A stretch of 8,625 nt of DNA from a virus (Duplodnaviria; Heunggongvirae; Uroviricota; Caudoviricetes), in the IMG/VR virus record IMGVR_UViG_2778261676_000003, positions 1 to 8,625 of that record; one strand, written 5' to 3'. This document shows, one piece after another, positions 1-8,625 of the stretch (the first letter of the stretch is position 1; every line of letters begins with the position of its first letter). The notes under the pieces are model-generated. The model made no database searches. It saw only the letters and a program-made list of their open reading frames with translations, and was not told the origin of the DNA. Made by a program: the position numbers and the translations under genes.

Positions 1-201
1 TTACCCATTGGCGCGGCTTAAGAGCTTATTTTTGAATTCACAGTGGTCACGATATAACCATCTTGCTCGCCCGTGGATAACTTTGGCTTTTGGCAGGTCG
101 CCGGACTTAATCCGGTCGTAGATGAAGGTTTTACCGAAGCCAGTATCGGCCATGATGAATTTCAAATCAACCAGTGAATCAGGTTGTAGTTCGTGTTGCA
201 T
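1..201 (-). CDS. torI: Excisionase / recombination directionality factor of the AlpA-Xis winged-helix family (TorI-like, 66 aa)
   Basis: Complete 66-aa ORF (ATG at 199-201, TAA at 1-3). The translation MQHELQPDSLVDLKFIMADTGFGKTFIYDRIKSGDLPKAKVIHGRARWLYRDHCEFKNKLLSRANG has the AlpA/Xis helix-turn-helix signature and matches my recollection of E. coli K-12 TorI (the KplE1 excisionase). The gene symbol is from memory and should be confirmed by BLAST. Confidence 0.85.
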   Translation of the reverse strand: MQHELQPDSLVDLKFIMADTGFGKTFIYDRIKSGDLPKAKVIHGRARWLYRDHCEFKNKLLSRANG

Positions 202-220
202 GAGTGCTATCTCCGAATAG

Positions 221-236
221 GGAATCGAACCTGCAA
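221..236 (-). other. tRNA T-arm-like 16-mer (minus-strand TTGCAGGTTCGATTCC); candidate att-core relic or recombinase-site remnant
   Basis: Plus strand 221-236 ggaatcgaacctgcaa is the reverse complement of TTGCAGGTTCGATTCC, which contains the canonical tRNA T-loop GGTTCGATTCC. As I recall the sequence it is identical to the T-arm segment of E. coli tRNA-Arg(CCU) argW. The flanking bases do not complete a tRNA, as there is no matching acceptor stem or CCA end. Confidence 0.4.
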
Positions 237-243
237 ATCAGGC

Positions 244-268
244 AATAAAAAACCGCCATCAGGCGGCT
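244..268 (-). terminator. Rho-independent terminator (minus strand) downstream of ORF 310..510 and upstream of torI
   Basis: On the minus strand: CCGCC-TGAT-GGCGG hairpin (plus 253-266) followed directly by TTTTTTATT (plus A-run 247-252). Confidence 0.6.
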
Positions 269-309
269 TGGTGTTCTTTCAGTTCTTCAATTCGAATATT
301 GGTTACGTC

Positions 310-510
310 TTATTCGATGCGTACTCCTGGTATTTCGCCTTTTGATATTGCTAAGTCATAAATTTGCGCGGCACTATATCCATCTCGCATCCATGAATCT
401 AAGGCGCGAACAGCCTCGCTACGCTTTTTATCTTCTCTCTCATTTTTGATATCAACGAGGACATCAACGCAATTAAGGCAAATGTGGATTTTGTCCTTAC
501 ATTCGATCAT
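310..510 (-). CDS. Hypothetical small protein (66 aa), possibly the C-terminal remnant of a zinc-ribbon protein
   Basis: ATG-initiated ORF with a weak ribosome-binding site. The in-frame stretch just upstream of the ATG encodes CSLCGG, and the ORF contains CLNC, so a CxxC...CxxC zinc ribbon appears split by the start position. No confident family assignment. Confidence 0.3.
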   Translation of the reverse strand: MIECKDKIHICLNCVDVLVDIKNEREDKKRSEAVRALDSWMRDGYSAAQIYDLAISKGEIPGVRIE

Positions 511-618
511 GGCTGCTTTACCATGATTTCCGCCACACAGTGAGCATAAATCTTCAGGGTCTGACTGTTATTTCTGTAACGTTAAAGGGTTGAATGTTGA
601 ACAGGCCATAATCATCTC

Positions 619-646
619 CATAAAACAAAACTCGCCGTAGCGAGTT
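619..646 (-). terminator. Rho-independent terminator (minus strand) downstream of the 767..1260 small-gene operon
   Basis: On the minus strand: 7-bp stem AACTCGC / GCGAGTT (plus 629-635 and 640-646) with a 4-nt loop, followed by TTTTGTTTTA. It lies inside the track ORF 554..754, which argues against that ORF. Confidence 0.5.
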
Positions 647-766
647 CAGATAAAAGAAATCCCCGCGAGTGCGAGGATTGTTATTGTCTTTTCTTCGTGC
701 ATTTGTCGCACTTTCGGCACCATCCAGATAGGCACATCCGTCCGCAATTAACACATATAGGCCACA

Positions 767-1045
767 TCATTTTTCCTCTTTTGGTTTATGAATCTGAATG
801 GTCATGCCGCTTTGAGTGGTGACTACAATGACAGAACCAGGCTGAAGACTGTTAAGATTGAATGCTTCGTAAAACGAATCCAAGGCCAGCGCTTTTTTAT
901 TCTTTCGGTTCCACCAACGCCATCCCTTGCTACAGGCTACACTGACAATCCACTGCCCACTCCTGTAAGCCATATAAAACCAGATGAGCAAAACCTGAAG
1001 GAATGCTATCCAGTCAATAATCGTATATTTCGCGAAGGAGTCCAT
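767..1045 (-). CDS. Hypothetical small membrane protein (about 92 aa; one predicted transmembrane helix followed by a basic W/R/K-rich segment)
   Basis: Strong Shine-Dalgarno AGGAGGTG 5 nt upstream of the ATG at 1043-1045. The track places the start at the GTG at 1046-1048. The stop of the upstream ORF overlaps this start (TGATG), indicating translational coupling. Hydrophobic stretch TIIDWIAFLQVLLIWFYMAY, then KGWRWWNRKNKK. Confidence 0.6.
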   Translation of the reverse strand: MDSFAKYTIIDWIAFLQVLLIWFYMAYRSGQWIVSVACSKGWRWWNRKNKKALALDSFYEAFNLNSLQPGSVIVVTTQSGMTIQIHKPKEEK

Positions 1046-1260
1046 CACTTCACCTCCTGCTGCGGTGCTGCTGGCATTTCACGCCAGTGCGTAACTGAGT
1101 GCGGATCCGGATATTCGGTGCCATCATCCCAGCGATTGCCATTCCACATTGCAGACCACATCTCACCGTCTTCATACATGACCATTACCGGAATTAACTT
1201 ATCGCGCCAGAAGCGCAGCAGGCTATCAGATTTGCAGAGCGTGAAGGAGTTCCTCTGCAC
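1045..1260 (-). CDS. Hypothetical small Trp-rich, mildly acidic protein (up to 71 aa; start uncertain)
   Basis: ORF ends with TGA at 1045-1047, overlapping the start of the downstream membrane-protein gene. The track start at 1260 is a GTG with a poor ribosome-binding site. Internal ATGs (codons 26 and 28) would give a 44-46 aa product. Confidence 0.45.
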   Translation of the reverse strand: MQRNSFTLCKSDSLLRFWRDKLIPVMVMYEDGEMWSAMWNGNRWDDGTEYPDPHSVTHWREMPAAPQQEVK

Positions 1261-1299
1261 ACCACAGACCTGTTACAACCAACTTCCCGCGTCGGAAAA

Positions 1300-2463
1300 A
1301 TGGCGCAGACTACAGCAGAAAATATCCCTCTGGCTGGCACAAGCGGAATGAGAGCAACGCAACAGGAAGCGAGAAGCCAGTTGGTGCAGAGATTTGCTGA
1401 TAAATTTGGTGAGTATGATCCAGCGGTTGTTATTGACAGCCTTAAAGCGAAAACATCAGGAATTCGTCGTGCCGCCGGTAATCGACTGGAGCAGGTTCAG
1501 AATGCTATGGCTGGAGTAAACATTCAGCCTGTGCGAGCAATTCAGCAGATTGATACTGAGATATCTAACCTGCAGAAGCTTGGTAAGGTCGCTGATAACG
1601 AGACGATTTCAAAACTTCAATCCTATCGTGATGAGCTTGTTCGCAATGCTGGTCCTGATGGTCCGGTAAATCTGGATTTGAAGCAATTAAGCGATCTGCG
1701 CAGCCAGTTCAGAATGGATGTGAAGGGTGAGCGACCAGTGTTACCAAACCGTTCCGATGCTGCCATTCAGCGCGTTTACAAGGCAATGACTGACGATATC
1801 AATGGTGCCATTGGTCAGAATCTTGGCAACGATACTCTCCGTAAATATCAGCAGGCCAATGCCGTCTACGCTGACGAAGCGGCGAAACTAAAGAATACCA
1901 GGCTGAAGAATGTTCTCATGAAAGGCGACCTGACGCCGGAAGTTGTCAACAACATGCTATTCAGCAAGAACAAATCGGAAATTAAGACTCTGTATAACTC
2001 AGTTGGTCGTGTTGGCAGGGCGCAAATGCGCAATGGCATCATTGGAAAGGCAATGGAGAAATCTGGCGGATCCCCTGACCAGTTCCTTCGACAGCTTAAC
2101 ATCCTGCAAAACCAGACTGGCATCACATTTAAAGGTCAGGATGCTGCTTATCTGAAAGGATTAAAAAACTACCTGCAATCCACGCAGCAGGCTGCAAAAG
2201 CGGCAGTAACAACACCCACAGGGCAGCAAACTATTCCGTTCATTATAGGGTATGGGACGGCAATGAACCCGGCGACAACTGGCGCAGCAGTAAGCTACGG
2301 ACTTCTTACTCGCGCCTATGAGAGCGAGCCATTCAGAAATGCAATGCTCCGAATGGCAAACACCCCACGCGGATCAACAGCGTTTGAGAAAGCCATGCAG
2401 CAGGCACAAAAGGCCATTAACGCCCTGACTCAGGGGGCTAAGTCTGATGCGTTGTCAGAATAG
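1300..2463 (+). CDS. Hypothetical phage protein, 387 aa, Q/A/N-rich with predicted coiled regions; possibly a DNA-injection (ejection) protein-like remnant by synteny
   Basis: Long ORF with ATG at 1300 and TAG at 2461-2463, and a weak ribosome-binding site (GGA). It sits immediately upstream of mnt and the tailspike, the position gene 16 occupies in P22-like phages, and its composition resembles ejection proteins. The functional call is by position and composition only. Confidence 0.7.
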   Translation: MAQTTAENIPLAGTSGMRATQQEARSQLVQRFADKFGEYDPAVVIDSLKAKTSGIRRAAGNRLEQVQNAMAGVNIQPVRAIQQIDTEISNLQKLGKVADNETISKLQSYRDELVRNAGPDGPVNLDLKQLSDLRSQFRMDVKGERPVLPNRSDAAIQRVYKAMTDDINGAIGQNLGNDTLRKYQQANAVYADEAAKLKNTRLKNVLMKGDLTPEVVNNMLFSKNKSEIKTLYNSVGRVGRAQMRNGIIGKAMEKSGGSPDQFLRQLNILQNQTGITFKGQDAAYLKGLKNYLQSTQQAAKAAVTTPTGQQTIPFIIGYGTAMNPATTGAAVSYGLLTRAYESEPFRNAMLRMANTPRGSTAFEKAMQQAQKAINALTQGAKSDALSE

Positions 2464-2552
2464 CTTCGCAAACACCAGGAACGTGCAAAAACCAAATATG
2501 TAGAACGCAATATTCAGCATATCTCTTTGCATATATCCTCCGTAACTGATAG

Positions 2553-2846
2553 TTAGCTGCTGTCTTTTTTATATAGCTCTTTGAGCGTATCAAAGACAAT
2601 TTTCTTAACCATATCAGATTGTTGTTCTGCCATACGCTCTGCATCGTCAATGTAAACTGATGCAGAGTTTTGTTTATCCAATGATTCCTCAATCGCTGCA
2701 ATTATCTCTGAGTTCAGCGACCTGTTATTCATCTTCGCACGCTGCTTAATTTTCGCGTGGAGTTCATGCGGAAGTCTCAAGTGAAACTGCGCCTCGTCGT
2801 ATTTGCTGTACATCCTTGATGCCTCACCAGTTGGGTGGAATGGCAT
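2553..2846 (-). CDS. mnt: Mnt-like ribbon-helix-helix (Arc/MetJ superfamily) transcriptional repressor
   Basis: Translation contains QFHLRLPHELHAKIKQRAKMNNRSLNSEIIAAIEESL (RHH motif) and the C-terminus DAERMAEQQSDMVKKIVFDTLKELYKKDSS, closely resembling the P22 Mnt C-terminus (...DAERLADEQSELVKKMVFDTLKDLYKK..) as I recall it. AGGT ribosome-binding site 4 nt before the ATG at 2844-2846. An alternative ATG at 2811-2813 would give 86 aa. Confidence 0.85.
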   Translation of the reverse strand: MPFHPTGEASRMYSKYDEAQFHLRLPHELHAKIKQRAKMNNRSLNSEIIAAIEESLDKQNSASVYIDDAERMAEQQSDMVKKIVFDTLKELYKKDSS

Positions 2847-2934
2847 CGTAACCTACTGGATAAATACTCAATAGTACCATTTCTGTATGCAATCACATCA
2901 TGGTTGCATCATATCATTCGTCTGGAGCAATGAA
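2847..2934. promoter_or_regulatory. Divergent intergenic region between mnt and the tailspike gene; contains an inverted repeat ATGCAA-N11-TTGCAT (2887-2909) as a candidate operator
   Basis: 88-bp AT-rich spacer between divergently oriented start codons, with 6-bp inverted-repeat arms. Promoter hexamers are not confidently assignable by eye. Confidence 0.35.
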
Positions 2935-5091
2935 ATGTCAGATATCACCGCAAATGTTGTGGTAAGCATGCCTTCGCAACTCTTCACTATGGCTCGTTCT
3001 TTTAAAGCCGTAGCCAATGGCAAAATTTATATCGGTAAAATTGACACTGACCCGGTAAATCCTGAAAACCAGATTCAGGTTTATGTGGAGAACGAAGACG
3101 GCTCTCACGTTCCTGTTTCGCAACCAATCATCATTAACGCTGCTGGTTACCCGGTATATAACGGACAGATTGCCAAGTTCGTAACTGTGCAAGGCCATTC
3201 TATGGCTGTTTATGATGCATACGGTGTGCAGCAGTTCTATTTTCCTAATGTGCTGAAGTATGACCCGGATCAGTTTTCTGCAGAATGGCTTGCCAAGATG
3301 TCTGCGCCTGATTCTTATGCATTATTTGGTACATTCTCATCAATAGCAGATCTACGAGCATTTACTGCATACTCATCAGTTAAGGAAAATGGAAGAGTCT
3401 ATGTTGATTCTTATCACCTTGGAACTGGTTATGGCGGAGGATATTTCCGCTGGAATTCAACCAGCACTGATACTGATGACGGAGGCTATACCATTAACCC
3501 AACTGGCAATACTGGAACAGGACGCTGGAAACGTGAATTCGTATCTGCATATTCAGCTCGCACAGTTTCGCCTTTAGAGTTCGGTGCTAAGATGAATGAC
3601 AGCACCTTCGATAGTGCCCCAGCGATCAATGCCGCCATTTCATACCTCAATCCTTACTTTGATGCCTCATATGACTCACATCAAGGCGGGGATGTAACCA
3701 TGCCTGCCGGGATGTTTTACATCAATGACACAATATACGGTTCTCCAAATGTAAGATTGATCGGTACTGGGGGAACGACCGGATTTAGATATTCACGTGC
3801 TGGGTGCTGCATCATCATATCCATGTCAACAATGGATGCAAACAAGGTACAATATGACACTGCTCCTTATAAAATCGACGGTACTGGTAGATATACTGAC
3901 ACCTCAACAGTGGATAATGGGCTGACAATAAGCCACGGCTATTACGGACAGTATTTAGAAAACTTGGTTTTTTTGGGAAATCCAGATCAAAAAGCCAACA
4001 TTCGTATCTGGCGAGTGCCAACGTCAAAGTTAATTGGTGTGGGAACATATGGCTGTCTAACCAACTTCTGGATTAGCGGTTCTTGGGGTACGGCAGTTGA
4101 AAATTGCTTTGCTCAAGGAGCAAAATACGCAACATTTTTGACTCCTCACACCACAGCACTAAACATTGTAGGTGGGTACTTCACTGGAAACACATCGCAA
4201 ACATGGGCAATGGGTTCTGCTCAGTGGTTCCACAGGACTGCCTCTGATTCAAATCGTCCAAATATTGCTTATGTAACAACATTCCTTTATGCGCATGATT
4301 CAGTTGATATCAATATGCATGGAGTTACTTGGGAGGGTTACTATAGGGATTTTGCTTTATTCTACTGCGGTAATGTTAACGTTTTTGGTGGCTATAACGA
4401 AAACTCTGTAATCCCTAGCTCCGAGTATGGTCACACAGTCTGGGTGCACTGTGTAGCCTCTAGGATTAATGCTTATGGAGTATTTCTAAATCATGGGTAT
4501 AAGGATTTCGCCGTTCAGTCAGGAAATTTAATTGACCCATCTACCGGGGCGTTAATCCCTTCTGAAATATCTAACATAAATCTTTATGACCCAAGAGTGG
4601 ACTCGAAGTTTTTACAGATAAACAAAGATCTTGGATACGGCGAATATAGTATATTCATTAGCTGCAAGCATCCTATAACATCAGATCTTGCTGTCACACT
4701 TGCCTCATTAAGAAACTACTCGGCCCAATTTGATGGCCTGCTTGATCAATACACTATGCGGGTTCCCTCAATAACTCCAAATGGAACAACAAGCTTTAGC
4801 TTCCAAATCAGTAATATATCTAGTAATGGTGAGTATAACGTGCGCTTTTTAGCCAGAAACTCTGGCGGCACTTTACATCAGGATATTAGATTTAAAATGC
4901 TAATTGGAAGCGTGGTGTCAGTGACAGGGGTGGAAGAGCGTTCGAAAGTAGGTACTGCAAGCTTGGGCTCACCTTCGGTTAGCTTTGCTTCTGGCACGGT
5001 AACGATAACCTTTAATGGGAATTCAGGACTATATTCTTTATACCGTGTGCAATGCTTGCCTGTTAACAATCAAGTTATTTACAGTTTCTGA
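2935..5091 (+). CDS. Phage tailspike protein: P22-type N-terminal head-binding domain fused to a divergent beta-helix-like receptor-binding/depolymerase domain (718 aa)
   Basis: N-terminus [59 protein letters not shown]...[11 protein letters not shown] closely parallels the P22 gp9 head-binding domain ([43 protein letters not shown]...). GGAG ribosome-binding site 7 nt upstream of the ATG at 2935; the track's upstream start at 2887 adds 16 residues not seen in homologs. Downstream [23 protein letters not shown] resembles the entry motif of pectate-lyase-like beta-helix depolymerases. Stop TGA at 5089-5091. Confidence 0.9.
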
Positions 5092-5097
5092 ATTTAT

Positions 5098-5128
5098 CCC
5101 CCCCCCGTACCCGCGGTGGGGGGGGGGG
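5098..5128. repeat. Homopolymeric inverted repeat C9-GTACCCGCGGT-G11 between convergent stop codons
   Basis: Read directly from the sequence: C-run 5098-5106, G-run 5118-5128, with a central CCGCGG palindrome. It starts 6 nt after the tailspike stop and ends 3 nt before the acetyltransferase stop (TGATCA at 5129-5134). Confidence 0.8.
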
Positions 5129-5131
5129 TGA

Positions 5132-7024
5132 TCACAAAAGAGGGTTTTTATGATTTTTCAAGTAAATCTTAGCCAATTCTCTTGCGCCATAAACATTTAG
5201 ATGTGCATGATCCATGTAAATAAACCTTCCATTTAAATAAACCTTGCAGCCTGAATCCGTGCAAAGGATATCATTTGGGTCTATATAAACTGGTTCTTTG
5301 TAGGAATTCATGATTTCATCTAATGAAATGTTAACATTTACTTTTTTAGCAAGTTCACTGTGGTCATCATTTCCAGATGCAATGTCAGATTTAAACTTGT
5401 TGAATTCCTTATAATCCATACCATTTGGTCTAAGTATTACAATTAGTTTAGCACCATGTGATGATAGGTATTCAAGAGTGGATAAGATGTCGTAACCATC
5501 TGCCTTGAAGTAACTGTCATCATTACCCCAACTAGCCCCTACAATCACGTTTTTATAACCCCTAGCCAAATCAATCCTTTTTTTGTTATAGGATAGCTTT
5601 TCCTCGCTACGGTATTTTGAAACCTTTGTGCCCTCTCTATATGGATTTATATTCATAATTGGTGGGAGCGAGCTTGAAACAGTAACAGCGACTGATTTTC
5701 CTGCATCCTTAGCCAAATAATCAATGAACTCTATGTATGACCCTGCTATCGAATCACCGATCATTATGGTCTCTGGCTTTTTTGTTACATCTCCTATGAT
5801 GCATAAACCATCTTTAGTTAGTGAATAGCTATCATAGCACTGAGAGTATTTGACCTCAGACCTGTTCTCATTTGCAAAATCGTTATTGTTAAATCTATCT
5901 GGGAATCCTTTCTCTGAGGAAGCCCAGAGGAAAATAAGTGAGAAAATTACAAGAGGAAGAATTAATAGAAGCAAGAGCGAAGGCAAGAATCCCATCTTAA
6001 ACTTGCGCACCTTAGTTTCAAAAGCATAAAAGTTGAATATAGAGAGAGCGATTGTTAGTATCAATACCACAAATTTAACAAAAATAGTGAACTCAACACC
6101 CCTATAATTAAGTAGGGCAATTATAGGCCAATGCCACAAATACATTGAATAAGAGATTTTGCCAATGAATATAACTGGTTTTAAACTTAAAACTCTGTTA
6201 ACAATTGGTGTAAAGGATTGATTGGCTCCAGCGATTATTATTAATGCCGCACCCACGCAAGGTATCAAAGCATTATAGCCAGGGAACAAGCTTTCTTTCT
6301 CTATTGAGAAAGAGCTAAATGCAATTAATGTTATACCTAAAATAGAGAAGGCGTTTGATACTTTTGTGGATTCAAATTTGTAATTACTTAGTAATATTGA
6401 AATAACGCCACCAATCATCAACTCAAAAGCCCTGAATGGGAGCATGTAGTATGCAAGCGATGTATATATAAGTGCGCCGTATTGCGAAACAGCAAACAAA
6501 GCAATTATTATCAAAACAAAGATCTGAAGCTCATACTTTCTAAATTTCAATATCACAAATGAAATTATCAAAGGTGCAATTAGATAGTACTGTTCCTCGA
6601 CGGATAAAGACCACGTGTGAAGAAGAGGGATCTGATCGGCGTTCCCTGAGAAATAGCTTGTAGTGTTGAAGTAAAAAAGGAAATTACTGATAGAAAGAAG
6701 AGTGAATATTGCGCTTTTGATCATGTATATAAACTCATCAGGCATCAATATGAAAATTGATGCGACTAATGTTGTAAATAACACGACCAATAAAGATGGC
6801 AAAATTCTCTTGATTCTTCTGTTGTAAAACCCTGAGTATGTGAAACTTCCGTTAGAAATTTCCTTTCTTATTATGGAGGTTATTAGATACCCAGAGATTA
6901 CAAAGAAAATATCTACCCCGATAAATCCGCCCGTAATGAACTGGCTACCAACATGATAGACTATTACCAATAGAACGGCTACTGCACGCAAGCCGTCAAT
7001 GTCTGGTCTATATCTAATCTCCAT
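5132..7024 (-). CDS. Integral-membrane O-acetyltransferase, acyltransferase-3 family with a C-terminal SGNH domain (OafA/Oac-like; likely O-antigen acetylation / serotype conversion), 630 aa
   Basis: N-terminal motif RPDIDGLRAVAVLLVIVYH and multiple hydrophobic segments typical of the acyltransferase-3 fold. C-terminal GDS (IGDSIA) and DHAH blocks typical of SGNH esterase-like domains. ATG at 7022-7024 with a GGGA ribosome-binding site. The gene looks AT-rich by eye. Confidence 0.9.
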   Translation of the reverse strand: MEIRYRPDIDGLRAVAVLLVIVYHVGSQFITGGFIGVDIFFVISGYLITSIIRKEISNGSFTYSGFYNRRIKRILPSLLVVLFTTLVASIFILMPDEFIYMIKSAIFTLLSISNFLFYFNTTSYFSGNADQIPLLHTWSLSVEEQYYLIAPLIISFVILKFRKYELQIFVLIIIALFAVSQYGALIYTSLAYYMLPFRAFELMIGGVISILLSNYKFESTKVSNAFSILGITLIAFSSFSIEKESLFPGYNALIPCVGAALIIIAGANQSFTPIVNRVLSLKPVIFIGKISYSMYLWHWPIIALLNYRGVEFTIFVKFVVLILTIALSIFNFYAFETKVRKFKMGFLPSLLLLLILPLVIFSLIFLWASSEKGFPDRFNNNDFANENRSEVKYSQCYDSYSLTKDGLCIIGDVTKKPETIMIGDSIAGSYIEFIDYLAKDAGKSVAVTVSSSLPPIMNINPYREGTKVSKYRSEEKLSYNKKRIDLARGYKNVIVGASWGNDDSYFKADGYDILSTLEYLSSHGAKLIVILRPNGMDYKEFNKFKSDIASGNDDHSELAKKVNVNISLDEIMNSYKEPVYIDPNDILCTDSGCKVYLNGRFIYMDHAHLNVYGARELAKIYLKNHKNPLL

Positions 7025-7223
7025 AAGGAATCCCTTTTGCTTACCCGTTTAAAATTAATATTTCAGACGCAAAGAAGTATCTTCTTCACATGATGTTGAT
7101 TGCAAACAGTGATCAAGCCATTTCATTACGCAATTCGTCGCTCTTATGCAGTTACAGTCATCATTTTCTACCTACAAAACTAGCGAAGTTGCCAAGTGCC
7201 TGACCTGTGTGAAACGCATATAT

Positions 7224-7467: not shown

Positions 7468-8625
7468 TCACTCCACCTTTTCATCAATCCAGTCCGCCCA
7501 CCATTGCATCATTTCTCTGCGTTTATCGAGATACTGAGCATGGTTGTAAATCCCACGCACAGAACCGCCGTTGGCATGTGCCAGTTGCACTTCAATAGCA
7601 TCAGCAGGCCATTCGTGCTCGTTCATAATCGTGCTGAATTCATGCCTGAATCCGTGACCGCTTTCCAGACCCTCATAGCCGATTTGTTTGATCACAAGTA
7701 GCACCGCGTTCTCGCAGATTGGCTTTTTCTTATCGTTGCGCCCGGCAAAAACAAACTCTGATACTGGTTTAGTGATGGAGCTTAGCGTAGTGAGAAGTTC
7801 AACCACCTGGTCCGACATCGGGACCACATGAATTTTGCGTCCCTTCATCACACTGGCGTCGATGGTGATAATCCTGTTTTCAAAATCGACGTTCTTCCAT
7901 TGCATGGAACGAAGCTCTTTTGTTCTTAGGGCTGTGTAGCGTAAAACCTTGGTCGCAATGAGCGATACGATGCTTCCTGAAAATGTTGCCAGTGCTTTGT
8001 TAAATGCCGGGATCTGGTCTGCAGGAAGAAACGGGAAGTTTTTCTTGCGGTATCCCTTCATGGCGTCAGCAAGGTCAGGTGCCGGGTTATATTTAGCCCT
8101 ACCAGTGACAATGGCGTAACGGAAAACCTCGCCGCATCTTCTGCGGGCTTTGTTGGCTCGCTCCATTGCACCGCGATCTTCAAATCTGCGGATTACTTCC
8201 AGCAGTTGCATCGGCTCAATATCCTGAATCTCAAGACCGCCGATGATAGGTAAAATGTCGTCATCAAACATTTTTGCAAGTTCATTTGCATAGCCTACTG
8301 ACCAGACTTGCTTCTTGTGCTCGTACCATTCCTTGTAAATCGCACTAAAGGAATTGTTGTTAGACGAAGCCTTTTTCGCCTTTACCGGATCGATGCCGAC
8401 CGAGATGTCTTTCCTCGCAGTCCATGCTTTATCCCTTGCCTCCTGCAAAGTCATAAGCGGATATTTTCCGACGGTCAGTATTTTTTCCTTACCGTCAATC
8501 TTGTAGCGAAGCTGCCATACCTTTTTCCCGGATACAGGAACATAAAGGTACAGGCCATTACCATCGAGAAGGCGGTATGGTTTTTCTTTCGGCTTTGCTG
8601 CTTCAATCTGCTTAACGGTGAGCAT
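7468..8625 (-). CDS. intS: Tyrosine site-specific integrase with an N-terminal arm-binding (DUF4102-type) domain, P4/CP4-57/IntS family (385 aa)
   Basis: N-terminus MLTVKQIEAAKPKEKPYRLLDGNGLYLYVPVSGKKVWQLRYKIDGKEK is the characteristic arm-binding domain of P4-type integrases. C-terminal catalytic-domain residues include ...HGFRHEFST... and ...LAHANGGSVRGIYNH.... The sequence matches my recollection of E. coli K-12 IntS, so the symbol should be confirmed by BLAST. The start codon is the last three bases of the window. Confidence 0.92.
   Translation of the reverse strand: MLTVKQIEAAKPKEKPYRLLDGNGLYLYVPVSGKKVWQLRYKIDGKEKILTVGKYPLMTLQEARDKAWTARKDISVGIDPVKAKKASSNNNSFSAIYKEWYEHKKQVWSVGYANELAKMFDDDILPIIGGLEIQDIEPMQLLEVIRRFEDRGAMERANKARRRCGEVFRYAIVTGRAKYNPAPDLADAMKGYRKKNFPFLPADQIPAFNKALATFSGSIVSLIATKVLRYTALRTKELRSMQWKNVDFENRIITIDASVMKGRKIHVVPMSDQVVELLTTLSSITKPVSEFVFAGRNDKKKPICENAVLLVIKQIGYEGLESGHGFRHEFSTIMNEHEWPADAIEVQLAHANGGSVRGIYNHAQYLDKRREMMQWWADWIDEKVE

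What the first reader, a model, noticed from the sequence alone, without database searches (positions are those of the whole stretch)
1195..2463. Probable deletion scar: a late-region ORF abutting early-left-type small genes with only a 39-bp divergent spacer
The 387-aa plus-strand ORF and the minus-strand small-gene operon start only 39 bp apart, too little for two independent promoter regions. The 387-aa frame is open back to a TAA at 1195-1197, with no alternative start before the ATG at 1300. Together with the absence of all head, lysis, replication and immunity genes between torI and the tailspike, this suggests a large internal deletion joined an early-left accessory region to the 3' portion of a late gene. 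If so, the 387-aa ORF may be an N-terminally truncated remnant with uncertain expression.
Basis: inference. Interest (0 to 1): 0.45.

Follow-up and report, generated by a model that had tools for sequence, protein, structure and literature searches.

The report
Deletion scar in decayed P22-like prophage
The 387-aa reading frame is the leftover back end of a phage DNA-injection gene, fused by a roughly 30-kb deletion to the tail end of an unrelated early phage gene; this is ordinary prophage decay, now mapped to the base.

Summary
The window is almost all of an 8.9-kb defective Sf6/P22-like prophage at the E. coli argW tRNA-Arg gene.

- **Right side.** Homology to the 665-aa P22-gp16-type injection protein (Sf6 gp13, Gally gp12) starts at window 1200, which is codon 245. 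The ATG at 1300 is internal Met279.
- **Left side.** Homology to a 267-aa EaA/DUF551 early-left gene ends at 1203.
- **Junction.** The two parents share a 4-bp microhomology, TATC, at 1200-1203. This points to one illegitimate-recombination deletion of about 30 kb that removed the head, lysis, replication and immunity genes.
- **The 39-bp "divergent spacer" is not a promoter region.** Both ORF starts lie inside gp16-derived DNA. The 71-aa minus-strand ORF is a chimera of 19 antisense-gp16 codons plus the last 52 EaA codons.
- **Expression.** No sigma-70-like promoter was found, and the native pL and late promoters are deleted.
- **Distribution.** This junction is absent from 5,426 complete E. 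coli genomes. At least three other remnants at argW carry independent junctions, and PGAP calls one equivalent gp16 fragment a pseudogene.

This is a new member of a well-known kind (KplE1-like cryptic prophage). Interest is low.

The parts
1..201 (-). torI (recombination directionality factor/excisionase), intact, 66 aa
   Evidence: 100% identical to the Sf6 gene 18 product. Annotated as TorI in Sf6 and in related remnants.
250..269 (-). Intrinsic-terminator-like hairpin between the early-left remnant and torI
   Evidence: 8-bp stem followed by a T run. Fold of -13.2 kcal/mol.
310..621 (-). Sf6 gene-19 homologue, interrupted by a premature stop at codon 18 (window 568-570). The 66-aa ORF 310-510 is what remains from an internal Met.
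   Evidence: Translation compared with Sf6 gene 19: Y18 (TAC) has become TAA. PHROG 3680 matches only profile positions 34-99 of 99.
767..1048 (-). DUF4752 early-left gene, apparently intact (92-93 aa)
   Evidence: Pfam DUF4752 E=2.5e-36, covering the full profile. Corresponds to Gally GALLYPH_22.
1045..1203 (-). 3' remnant of the EaA-type gene (DUF551 C-terminal domain): codons 216-267 of 267, plus the stop
   Evidence: Residues 20-71 of the 71-aa ORF are 100% identical to Gally EaA 216-267. DNA homology ends at 1203. Pfam DUF551 matches only profile positions 26-68 of 68.
1200..1203 (.). Deletion junction: the 4-bp microhomology TATC is present in both parental sequences
   Evidence: Three-way alignment of the window against the Gally left and right parents.
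1045..1260 (-). Chimeric 71-aa ORF: 19 codons antisense to gp16, fused to the last 52 EaA codons. RefSeq names it as a DUF551 protein (WP_244586424.1).
1200..2463 (+). 3' remnant of the P22-gp16-type DNA ejection/transfer protein gene (Sf6 gene 13): codons 246-665 of 665, plus the stop
   Evidence: blastn against Sf6 and Gally starts at 1200. 416 of 420 aa are identical to Gally gp12 residues 246-665.
1300..2463 (+). 387-aa ORF starting at internal Met279 of the ejection protein. It is preceded only by a weak GGA Shine-Dalgarno-like motif 3 nt upstream, and no promoter was detected.
2553..2813 (-). mnt-type Arc/Mnt repressor gene (86 aa by the gene call; 97 aa from the first ATG at 2846)
   Evidence: Pfam Arc plus Repressor_Mnt. 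Gene call in L006.
2935..5091 (+). Tailspike gene (718 aa): P22 head-binding domain plus a receptor-binding part with no close relative in the collections searched
   Evidence: Pfam Head_binding E=1.3e-66. Gene call. Only the N-terminal third or so matches phage records.
5132..7024 (-). AT3 + SGNH acyltransferase (O-antigen acetylase type), 630 aa, low GC
   Evidence: Pfam Acyl_transf_3 plus SGNH. GC 0.33-0.39.
7468..8625 (-). intS-type tyrosine integrase, full length (385 aa)
   Evidence: Pfam domains. In the positional comparison of the 386-character translations (385 aa plus the stop symbol), 381 positions are identical to Sf6 Int.

Best explanation
The window is a defective Sf6/P22-like (Lederbergvirus) prophage integrated at argW of E. 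coli. An internal deletion of about 30 kb arose by illegitimate, microhomology-mediated recombination at the tetranucleotide TATC.

The deletion joined codon 215/216 of a minus-strand early-left gene (EaA type, 267 aa, C-terminal DUF551) to codon 245/246 of the plus-strand late gene for the P22-gp16-type DNA ejection protein (665 aa). Everything between them was lost: the rest of the pL operon, N, the immunity region, replication, nin, Q, lysis, terminase, head, and the gp7 and gp20 ejection genes.

The 387-aa ORF is what a mechanical ORF finder sees from the first internal Met (Met279) of the truncated gene. The 71-aa ORF opposite is a chimera that runs from a fortuitous GTG in antisense-gp16 DNA into the EaA tail.

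Both lost their native promoters (pL with N antitermination; the late promoter with Q-type antitermination). They are therefore most likely silent pseudogene fragments.

**Shown:** the junction, both truncations, and the genomic context.
**Inferred:** that a single event did it, that the mechanism was replication slippage or illegitimate recombination, and that the fragments are not expressed.
For: **The ORF is the C-terminal part of a longer protein.**
- The 387-aa product matches only positions 257-666 of the 668-position DNA-transfer-protein profile PHROG 770.
- It is 99.2% identical to the C-terminal 387 aa of Sf6 gp13.
- Codons 1201-1299 upstream of the ATG are 100% identical to Gally gp12 residues 246-278, so ATG1300 is Met279.

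**The junction.**
- DNA homology to Sf6 and Gally gp16-type genes begins at 1200.
- Homology to EaA/DUF4752 regions ends at 1203, at 100% identity to many E. coli prophages.
- The three-way alignment shows the shared TATC.
- Residues 20-71 of the 71-aa ORF equal EaA 216-267. Residues 1-19 have no EaA counterpart.
- In Gally coordinates the missing segment is 21204..38682 plus 1..12488, which is 29,967 bp and holds all the missing functions.

**Genomic context.**
- The window is 100% identical to a 66-kb assembly contig with the order dsdC | attL | torI ... intS | attR-argW | yfdC.
- The att repeats carry the 16-nt core ATGGTGTCCCCTGCAG. This is the KplE1 core CTGCAGGGGACACCAT on the other strand (PMC2951348).

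**Independent parallels.**
- Other remnants at the same site have different junctions: gp16 codon 259 with a TGAA microhomology, gp16 codon ~6, and inside gp20.
- PGAP marks the equivalent gp16 fragment as 'incomplete; missing N-terminus'.

**Expression and age.**
- No sigma-70-like promoter was found on either strand in 1-1400 or in 900-3000 near the junction.
- dN/dS of the fragment against Sf6 and Gally is 0.03-0.04. The differences therefore accumulated under selection in functional phages, before the deletion.

**Chance estimate (my own hand calculation).** A junction overlap of 4 bp or more is expected by chance in about 1.6% of blunt joins. Here two independent junctions both show 4 bp.
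Against: - No intact parent carrying both arms at argW was recovered. Gally has both junction parents but a different integrase, and Sf6 has the integrase, torI and gp13 but a different early-left segment. The 30-kb size and the single-event claim are therefore inferences, and successive deletions would leave the same final junction.
- The ORF is perfectly intact, with no frameshift or stop, so sequence alone cannot exclude expression or function.
- The promoter scan is a simple consensus search. It cannot exclude weak or non-sigma-70 promoters, or read-through.
- Two independent deletions break gp16 within 42 bp of each other. This could hint at something non-random, although the second one was found precisely because it produces the same ORF.
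Confidence: 0.93

Rival explanations
1. The 387-aa C-terminal fragment of the ejection protein is a retained, expressed gene. It might, for example, act as a dominant-negative or decoy protein that interferes with ejectosome assembly of superinfecting P22-like phages.
For: - The ORF is intact.
- Two independent deletions leave exactly the same 387-aa ORF.
- In P22, escape mutations against SieA exclusion map to the C-terminal regions of gp16 and gp20. gp16 and gp20 must also interact in a type-specific way (PMC10461980). The retained part is therefore functionally interactive.
Against: - No promoter was detected, and the only Shine-Dalgarno-like motif is a GGA with 3-nt spacing.
- The junctions are rare: 0 and 1 of 5,426 complete genomes.
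- Other remnants keep full-length gp16, or gp20 fragments, instead.
- The low dN/dS predates the deletion.
- The second 387-aa case was found through the shared ORF call, so it reflects ascertainment bias.
- A cytoplasmic fragment would lack the virion route by which gp16 normally reaches the envelope (established knowledge about ejection proteins).
Confidence: 0.04
2. The junction was not made by a simple intra-prophage deletion. It came instead from recombination between two different (tandem or separate) prophages, from several successive deletions, or from an IS-mediated adjacent deletion.
For: - The left arm (686-1203) is closest to Stx-phage and O26 prophage sequences (99.8-100%), while torI, gene 19, gp16 and int are Sf6-like. 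The parent was therefore mosaic, or there were two parents.
- A related remnant carries an IS21-family element (H41).
Against: - One known phage (Gally) carries both junction parents in the expected order and orientation.
- No IS end or repeat lies at 1190-1210. Only 4 bp of shared sequence is present.
- Mosaicism of early-left regions is normal in this phage group (established knowledge).
Confidence: 0.05
3. The junction is an assembly or sequencing artefact (a chimeric contig).
For: The window junction was found in no complete E. coli genome and in no species-representative genome.
Against: - The whole 8,625-bp window is 100% identical within a 66-kb contig, with a coherent host context and matching attL and attR.
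- Four contigs from NCBI and Logan sources carry the exact protein.
- The same architecture, with other junctions, exists in closed genomes.
Confidence: 0.01

Closest known systems
KplE1 / CPS-53 defective prophage of E. coli K-12
   Same: - Integrated at argW.
- Same 16-nt duplicated core (CTGCAGGGGACACCAT).
- Same IntS/TorI recombination module.
- A remnant of about 9-10 kb with no repressor, replication, lysis or head genes (PMC2951348).
   Different: - Different retained cargo. Here it is a gp16 fragment, mnt, a P22-type tailspike and an AT3-SGNH acyltransferase. By my recollection of K-12 annotation, K-12 keeps gtrABS-type and tail-fibre-assembly remnants.
- A different and independent deletion junction.
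Shigella phage Sf6 (intact Lederbergvirus that integrates at argW)
   Same: - torI is 100% identical.
- Int is about 99% identical.
- The gene 19 region is 97.8% identical at DNA level.
- gp13 residues 279-665 are 99.2% identical.
- Same gene order: ejection gene, tailspike, acetylase, int.
   Different: - Sf6 is a complete 39-kb genome with a full 665-aa gp13.
- Its early-left region beyond gene 19, its tailspike receptor-binding part and its oac gene are unrelated to the window's.
Escherichia phage Gally (OV696608.1)
   Same: Carries both parental genes of the junction: EaA (267 aa, 100% identical over the retained 52 aa) and gp12 (665 aa, 99% over 420 aa). They lie in the orientation that a single deletion requires.
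   Different: Gally has a different integrase/excisionase and tailspike, and extra genes between gp12 and mnt. It is a model for the parent, not the parent itself.
E. coli UR21/11-869 (NZ_OU342919.1) argW remnant
   Same: - Same site and the same overall layout.
- Also leaves a 387-aa ORF from Met279, with a 39-bp gap to a chimeric minus-strand ORF.
- Also has a 4-bp microhomology junction.
   Different: - The break is 42 bp further into gp16 (codon 259).
- Its left partner is a different small gene next to torI.
- It has a different tailspike and acyltransferase.
- PGAP already annotates the gp16 fragment as a pseudogene.
P22 gp16 ejection (pilot) protein
   Same: Sequence family (PHROG 770; Pfam PF26808 listed for the product). 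About 75% identity to ST64T/ST104-type gp16 over the 387 aa.
   Different: - Lacks the N-terminal 278 residues.
- Lacks the partner genes 7 and 20, and any virion to carry it.
- It cannot act as an ejection protein.

Membership tests
P22-gp16-type DNA ejection/transfer protein (PHROG 770 / Pfam PF26808) | Significant sequence match to the family profile | tested here: met
   PHROG 770 E=9e-158. PF26808 is listed for the product. 99% identity to Sf6 gp13 and Gally gp12.
P22-gp16-type DNA ejection/transfer protein (PHROG 770 / Pfam PF26808) | Full-length protein (about 609-665 aa) including the N-terminal 40% | tested here: not met
   Only profile positions 257-666 of 668 are covered. Coding DNA for residues 1-244 is absent, and homology starts at 1200.
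P22-gp16-type DNA ejection/transfer protein (PHROG 770 / Pfam PF26808) | Encoded in a late operon after the gp7 and gp20 homologues, alongside virion genes | tested here: not met
   No gp7, gp20, head or terminase genes occur in the window or its flanks.
KplE1-type defective prophage at argW (IntS/TorI module) | Integration at the 3' end of argW, with the duplicated 16-nt core CTGCAGGGGACACCAT | tested here: met
   tRNA-Arg(CCT) lies next to intS. The 16-nt repeat is at L006 8613-8628 and 17487-17502. The core sequence comes from PMC2951348.
KplE1-type defective prophage at argW (IntS/TorI module) | Intact intS and torI genes | tested here: met
   385-aa Int with all three domains, about 99% identical to Sf6 Int. 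TorI is 100% identical to the Sf6 homologue.
KplE1-type defective prophage at argW (IntS/TorI module) | Lacks the genes needed for a lytic cycle (defective) | tested here: met
   The 8.9-kb element has no repressor, replication, lysis, terminase or capsid genes.
KplE1-type defective prophage at argW (IntS/TorI module) | Still excisable in vivo by IntS plus TorI | not testable with these tools
   Needs PCR for attB/attP products. Only the presence of the parts was shown.
Microhomology-mediated (illegitimate) deletion | Short identical sequence at both parental breakpoints, with one copy kept | tested here: met
   TATC is present in both parents and once in the window, at 1200-1203.
Microhomology-mediated (illegitimate) deletion | No IS element, long repeat or site-specific recombination site at the junction | tested here: met
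   The two flanking homologies abut directly with no inserted sequence. No repeat family involves the junction itself (window 1195-1210 = L006 9896-9911).
EaA / DUF551-containing early-left protein | Full-length protein with a complete DUF551 domain | tested here: not met
   Only DUF551 profile positions 26-68 of 68 are matched. Only EaA residues 216-267 of 267 are retained.

The most novel reading that the evidence does not exclude
Internal deletions of argW P22-like prophages may be non-random. On this reading, selection repeatedly preserves a block running from the C-terminal part of the ejection protein through mnt, the tailspike and the O-antigen acyltransferase to intS. The gp16 C-terminal fragment would be expressed at a low level and help exclude related superinfecting phages by poisoning gp16-gp20 conduit assembly.
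Probability: 0.04. Interest if true: 0.6.

Novelty: new member of a known kind. Interest (0 to 1): 0.15.

Why it matters
**Mainly for annotation.**
- The 387-aa ORF should be labelled a 5'-truncated pseudogene of a gp16-type ejection protein.
- The 71-aa "DUF551 domain-containing protein" (a RefSeq WP_ accession exists) is a junction-created chimera, not a real gene.
- The 39-bp "divergent intergenic region" is not a regulatory region.

**More broadly.**
- The locus is a clean, base-resolved example of prophage decay by microhomology-mediated deletion.
- With three other independent junctions at the same attachment site, it could feed a survey of how cryptic prophages shrink and which cargo survives (tailspike, O-antigen acetylase, int/xis).

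None of this challenges current understanding.

Tried and rejected
- **Pfam and NCBIfam** gave no usable family for the gp16-type protein, full length or fragment. There were only sub-threshold chance hits to PDH_C and Snapin. The local Pfam copy lacks PF26808.
- **PDB sequence search** with full-length Gally gp12: no hit.
- **Rfam** on the whole window: nothing at gathering threshold.
- **tRNA search** in the window: none. argW lies just outside it.
- **Exact 40-nt junction search** in the 185,579 species-representative genomes: 0 hits.
- **Junction search in complete E. coli genomes:** 0 of 5,426.
- **Promoter scans** found nothing near the junction. The terminator-like hit at 1299-1283 on the minus strand has a poor T tract and lies inside gp16 coding DNA, so I disregard it.
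- **Clustering of right-hand breakpoints.** I considered whether four junctions falling within gp20/gp16 shows selection. I rejected this as evidence, because these remnants were found by ranking on similarity to this window and by the shared 387-aa ORF call, which is complete ascertainment bias.
- **PHROG 29117 (327 aa) and PHROG 29864 (399 aa).** I considered whether these show a natural short gene. They align to ORF residues 79-380 and 2-106, so neither shares this N-terminus. They probably reflect split gp16 annotations in some phage records (for example H20).
Full report
**1. What is in the window**

The ORF map and family scans give the following gene order.

| Window position | Strand | Feature |
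|---|---|---|
| 1-201 | - | torI |
| 310-510 | - | 66-aa ORF |
| 767-1048 | - | DUF4752 gene |
| 1045-1260 | - | 71-aa ORF with a partial DUF551 match |
| 1300-2463 | + | the 387-aa ORF |
| 2553-2846 | - | Mnt/Arc-type repressor |
| 2935-5091 | + | tailspike with a P22 head-binding domain |
| 5132-7024 | - | AT3+SGNH acyltransferase |
| 7468-8625 | - | full-length IntS-type integrase |

No head, terminase, lysis, replication or immunity gene is present.

An exact-protein look-up found the whole window, 100% identical, inside a 66-kb assembly contig (L006). Its context is evgSA-emrKY-dsdAXC | torI ... intS | tRNA-Arg(CCT) | yfdC-mlaA.

A 16-nt direct repeat, ATGGTGTCCCCTGCAG, lies 88 bp left and 161 bp right of the window, 8,874 bp apart. 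On the other strand this is the CTGCAGGGGACACCAT core reported for the defective prophage KplE1/CPS-53 at argW. That paper states the recombination module is shared with Sf6, HK620 and CUS-3 (PMC2951348). The window is therefore essentially a whole 8.9-kb cryptic prophage at argW of E. coli.

**2. Checking the observation**

- The ORF runs 1300-2463.
- The frame is open back to TAA at 1195-1197, with no ATG, GTG or TTG in frame in 1198-1299.
- The nearest minus-strand ORF starts at 1260, so the gap is 39 bp.

**3. What the 387-aa ORF is**

- It matches only positions 257-666 of the 668-position PHROG 770, 'DNA transfer protein'.
- It is 99.2% identical to the C-terminal 387 residues of Sf6 gene 13 protein, which is 665 aa and annotated as similar to P22 gene 16 protein.
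- Translating from the codon after the TAA gives 420 residues. Of these, 416 are identical to residues 246-665 of phage Gally gp12.
- The codons 1201-1299 upstream of the ATG are 100% identical to residues 246-278, and the ATG is Met279.
- In the 90%-identity protein cluster (1,036 members; 40 read, 15 listed), the listed members are 665 aa. The exceptions are one of 644 aa and two 387-aa forms.

It is not met. The ORF is a 5'-truncated remnant.

**4. The junction**

- blastn of the window against Sf6 and Gally shows gp16-type homology beginning exactly at 1200. Many complete E. coli genomes also begin to match at 1200.
- Homology to the early-left DUF4752/EaA region of other prophages and phages runs from 686 to exactly 1203. 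Identity is 100% in many O26 genomes, 99.8% in Stx1a phages and 98.3% in Gally.
- The three-way alignment reads as follows.
  - Left parent: ...AATTAACT-TATC-CGGCATT...
  - Right parent: ...GTGGTGC-TATC-GCGCCAG...
  - Window: ...AATTAACT-TATC-GCGCCAG...
- The junction is therefore a 4-bp microhomology at 1200-1203.
- The TAA at 1195-1197 belongs to the left parent.

On the minus strand, residues 20-71 of the 71-aa ORF equal EaA residues 216-267 (100%). Residues 1-19 are simply the antisense of gp16 DNA. Intact EaA is 267 aa with DUF551 at positions 206-263.

Both genes at the junction are thus truncated. The '39-bp divergent spacer' lies wholly inside gp16 coding sequence, so there is no divergent-promoter puzzle.

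In Gally coordinates the missing DNA is 21204-38682 plus 1-12488, a total of 29,967 bp. It carries EaD/EaE, abc/gam/recT, N, C2, cro, C1, O/P, nin, Q, lysis, terminase, portal, scaffold, coat, head completion, needle, gp14, gp7 and gp20 homologues.

**5. Mechanism**

- The two homologies abut with nothing inserted between them. Only the 4 shared bases are present, with no IS end and no long repeat.
- By my own hand calculation, an overlap of 4 bp or more is expected by chance in about 1.6% of blunt joins.
- This fits RecA-independent illegitimate recombination or replication slippage, which is a standard route of prophage decay (established knowledge).
- A single event is the simplest reading. 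Successive deletions cannot be excluded, because only the last junction survives.
- No intact parent with both arms at argW was recovered. The parent is modelled from two mosaic relatives: Sf6 for int, torI, gene 19 and gp13, and Gally for DUF4752, EaA and gp12.

**6. Expression**

- The native promoters (pL with N; the late promoter with the Q-type antiterminator) lie in the deleted segment.
- A consensus scan finds no sigma-70-like promoter on either strand in 1-1400, and none near the junction in 900-3000.
- The minus-strand early-left remnant contains three terminator-like hairpins, at 679-658, 647-628 and 269-250.
- The ATG at 1300 is preceded only by GGA with 3-nt spacing.
- I infer that both junction ORFs are silent or nearly so. 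This is inference from sequence, not measurement.
- The fragment has no internal damage. Its dN/dS against Sf6 and Gally is 0.03-0.04, so its differences arose while it was part of a working phage and the deletion is comparatively recent.
- A separate sign of decay is a premature stop (TAC to TAA, codon 18) in the Sf6 gene-19 homologue at window 568-570.

**7. Distribution and parallels**

The window junction occurs in 0 of 5,426 complete E. coli genomes and in 0 species-representative genomes. Four assembly contigs carry the exact protein.

Other argW remnants carry independent junctions.

| Remnant | Right breakpoint | Left partner | Notes |
|---|---|---|---|
| L007/L008/L009 | gp16 codon 259 | a small gene next to torI | TGAA microhomology; same 387-aa ORF and 39-bp gap; 1 of 5,426 complete genomes; PGAP annotates the fragment 'incomplete; missing N-terminus' |
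| EC7518 (L004) | about gp16 codon 6 | early-left gene | |
| OHT76-1 (L002) | inside the gp20 homologue | early-left gene | |

These remnants were found by similarity to this window or by the shared ORF call. Their clustered right endpoints therefore cannot be taken as evidence of selection.

**8. Comparison with what is known**

- The element is a member of the KplE1-type family of cryptic prophages at argW. Site, core, IntS, TorI and defectiveness were all tested and met. Excision was not testable.
- It derives from a Lederbergvirus (P22/Sf6-like) genome.
- The 387-aa product belongs to the P22 gp16 sequence family but fails the full-length and operon-context criteria. It should not be filed as a functional ejection protein.
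- P22 gp16 acts after release from the virion, at the inner membrane, together with gp20 and gp7 (PMC10461980; PMC8954989). A cytoplasmically made C-terminal fragment, with no virion and no partners, has no obvious route to that role.
- The most novel reading not excluded is a dominant-negative anti-superinfection role. SieA-escape mutations map to the C-terminal regions of gp16 and gp20. I rate this at about 4%.

**9. Verdict**

The scar is now placed at 1200-1203 with a TATC microhomology, both flanking ORFs are shown to be junction artefacts, and the deletion is sized at about 30 kb. This is ordinary prophage decay and a new instance of a known kind. Its value lies mainly in correcting annotation, for example the RefSeq 'DUF551 domain-containing protein' WP_244586424.1.

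Noticed in passing
window 3300-7200 (tailspike receptor-binding part and AT3-SGNH acyltransferase): This 3.9-kb stretch has no blastn match, even in 'distant' mode, in 5,426 complete E. coli genomes. The C-terminal ~480 aa of the tailspike have no tblastn match in 50,697 phage records. The acyltransferase region is low in GC, at 0.33-0.39. It looks like a rare serotype-specific tailspike plus O-antigen acetylase module.
   Followed up: partly
window 568-570 (minus strand), within 310-621: The homologue of Sf6 gene 19 (103 aa) carries a premature stop at codon 18 (TAC to TAA). This leaves the 66-aa ORF 310-510 starting from an internal Met, and is a second sign of decay in the remnant.
   Followed up: yes
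window 221-236; L006 8922-8937 vs 17502-17517: A 16-nt copy of the argW segment that directly follows the att core in the tRNA (GGAATCGAACCTGCAA) sits just upstream of torI. This is inside what Sf6 annotates as the pI promoter / 'bsq2 boundary sequence'. The tRNA 3' half thus appears split around the torI segment, which may be a trace of how the torI module was acquired.
   Followed up: no
L002 (OHT76-1), L004 (EC7518), L007/L008/L009 (UR21/11-869 and others): At least three further independent ~30-kb internal deletions occur in P22-like prophages at argW. Each keeps torI on one side and an ejection-gene remnant, tailspike, (acyltransferase) and intS on the other, and each has different tailspike and O-antigen-modification cargo. 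Whether this pattern is selected or an ascertainment effect was not resolved.
   Followed up: partly
window 1045-1260 (minus strand): The junction-created chimeric 71-aa ORF has a RefSeq non-redundant accession (WP_244586424.1, 'DUF551 domain-containing protein'). Its 90% cluster is full of 30-51-aa DUF551 fragments, which suggests that many truncated EaA-type remnants are annotated as proteins.
   Followed up: partly
window 628-679 and 250-269 (minus strand): Three terminator-like hairpins lie in the early-left remnant, against about 1.1 expected for the region. This fits an operon that normally needs N antitermination, and fits torI being transcribed separately from upstream genes.
   Followed up: partly
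L007/L009 left flank: In the UR21/11-869-type strains the prophage remnant abuts the csc sucrose-utilisation cluster (cscR, cscA, cscK, cscB) and a truncated dsdX, rather than dsdC as in L006.
   Followed up: no
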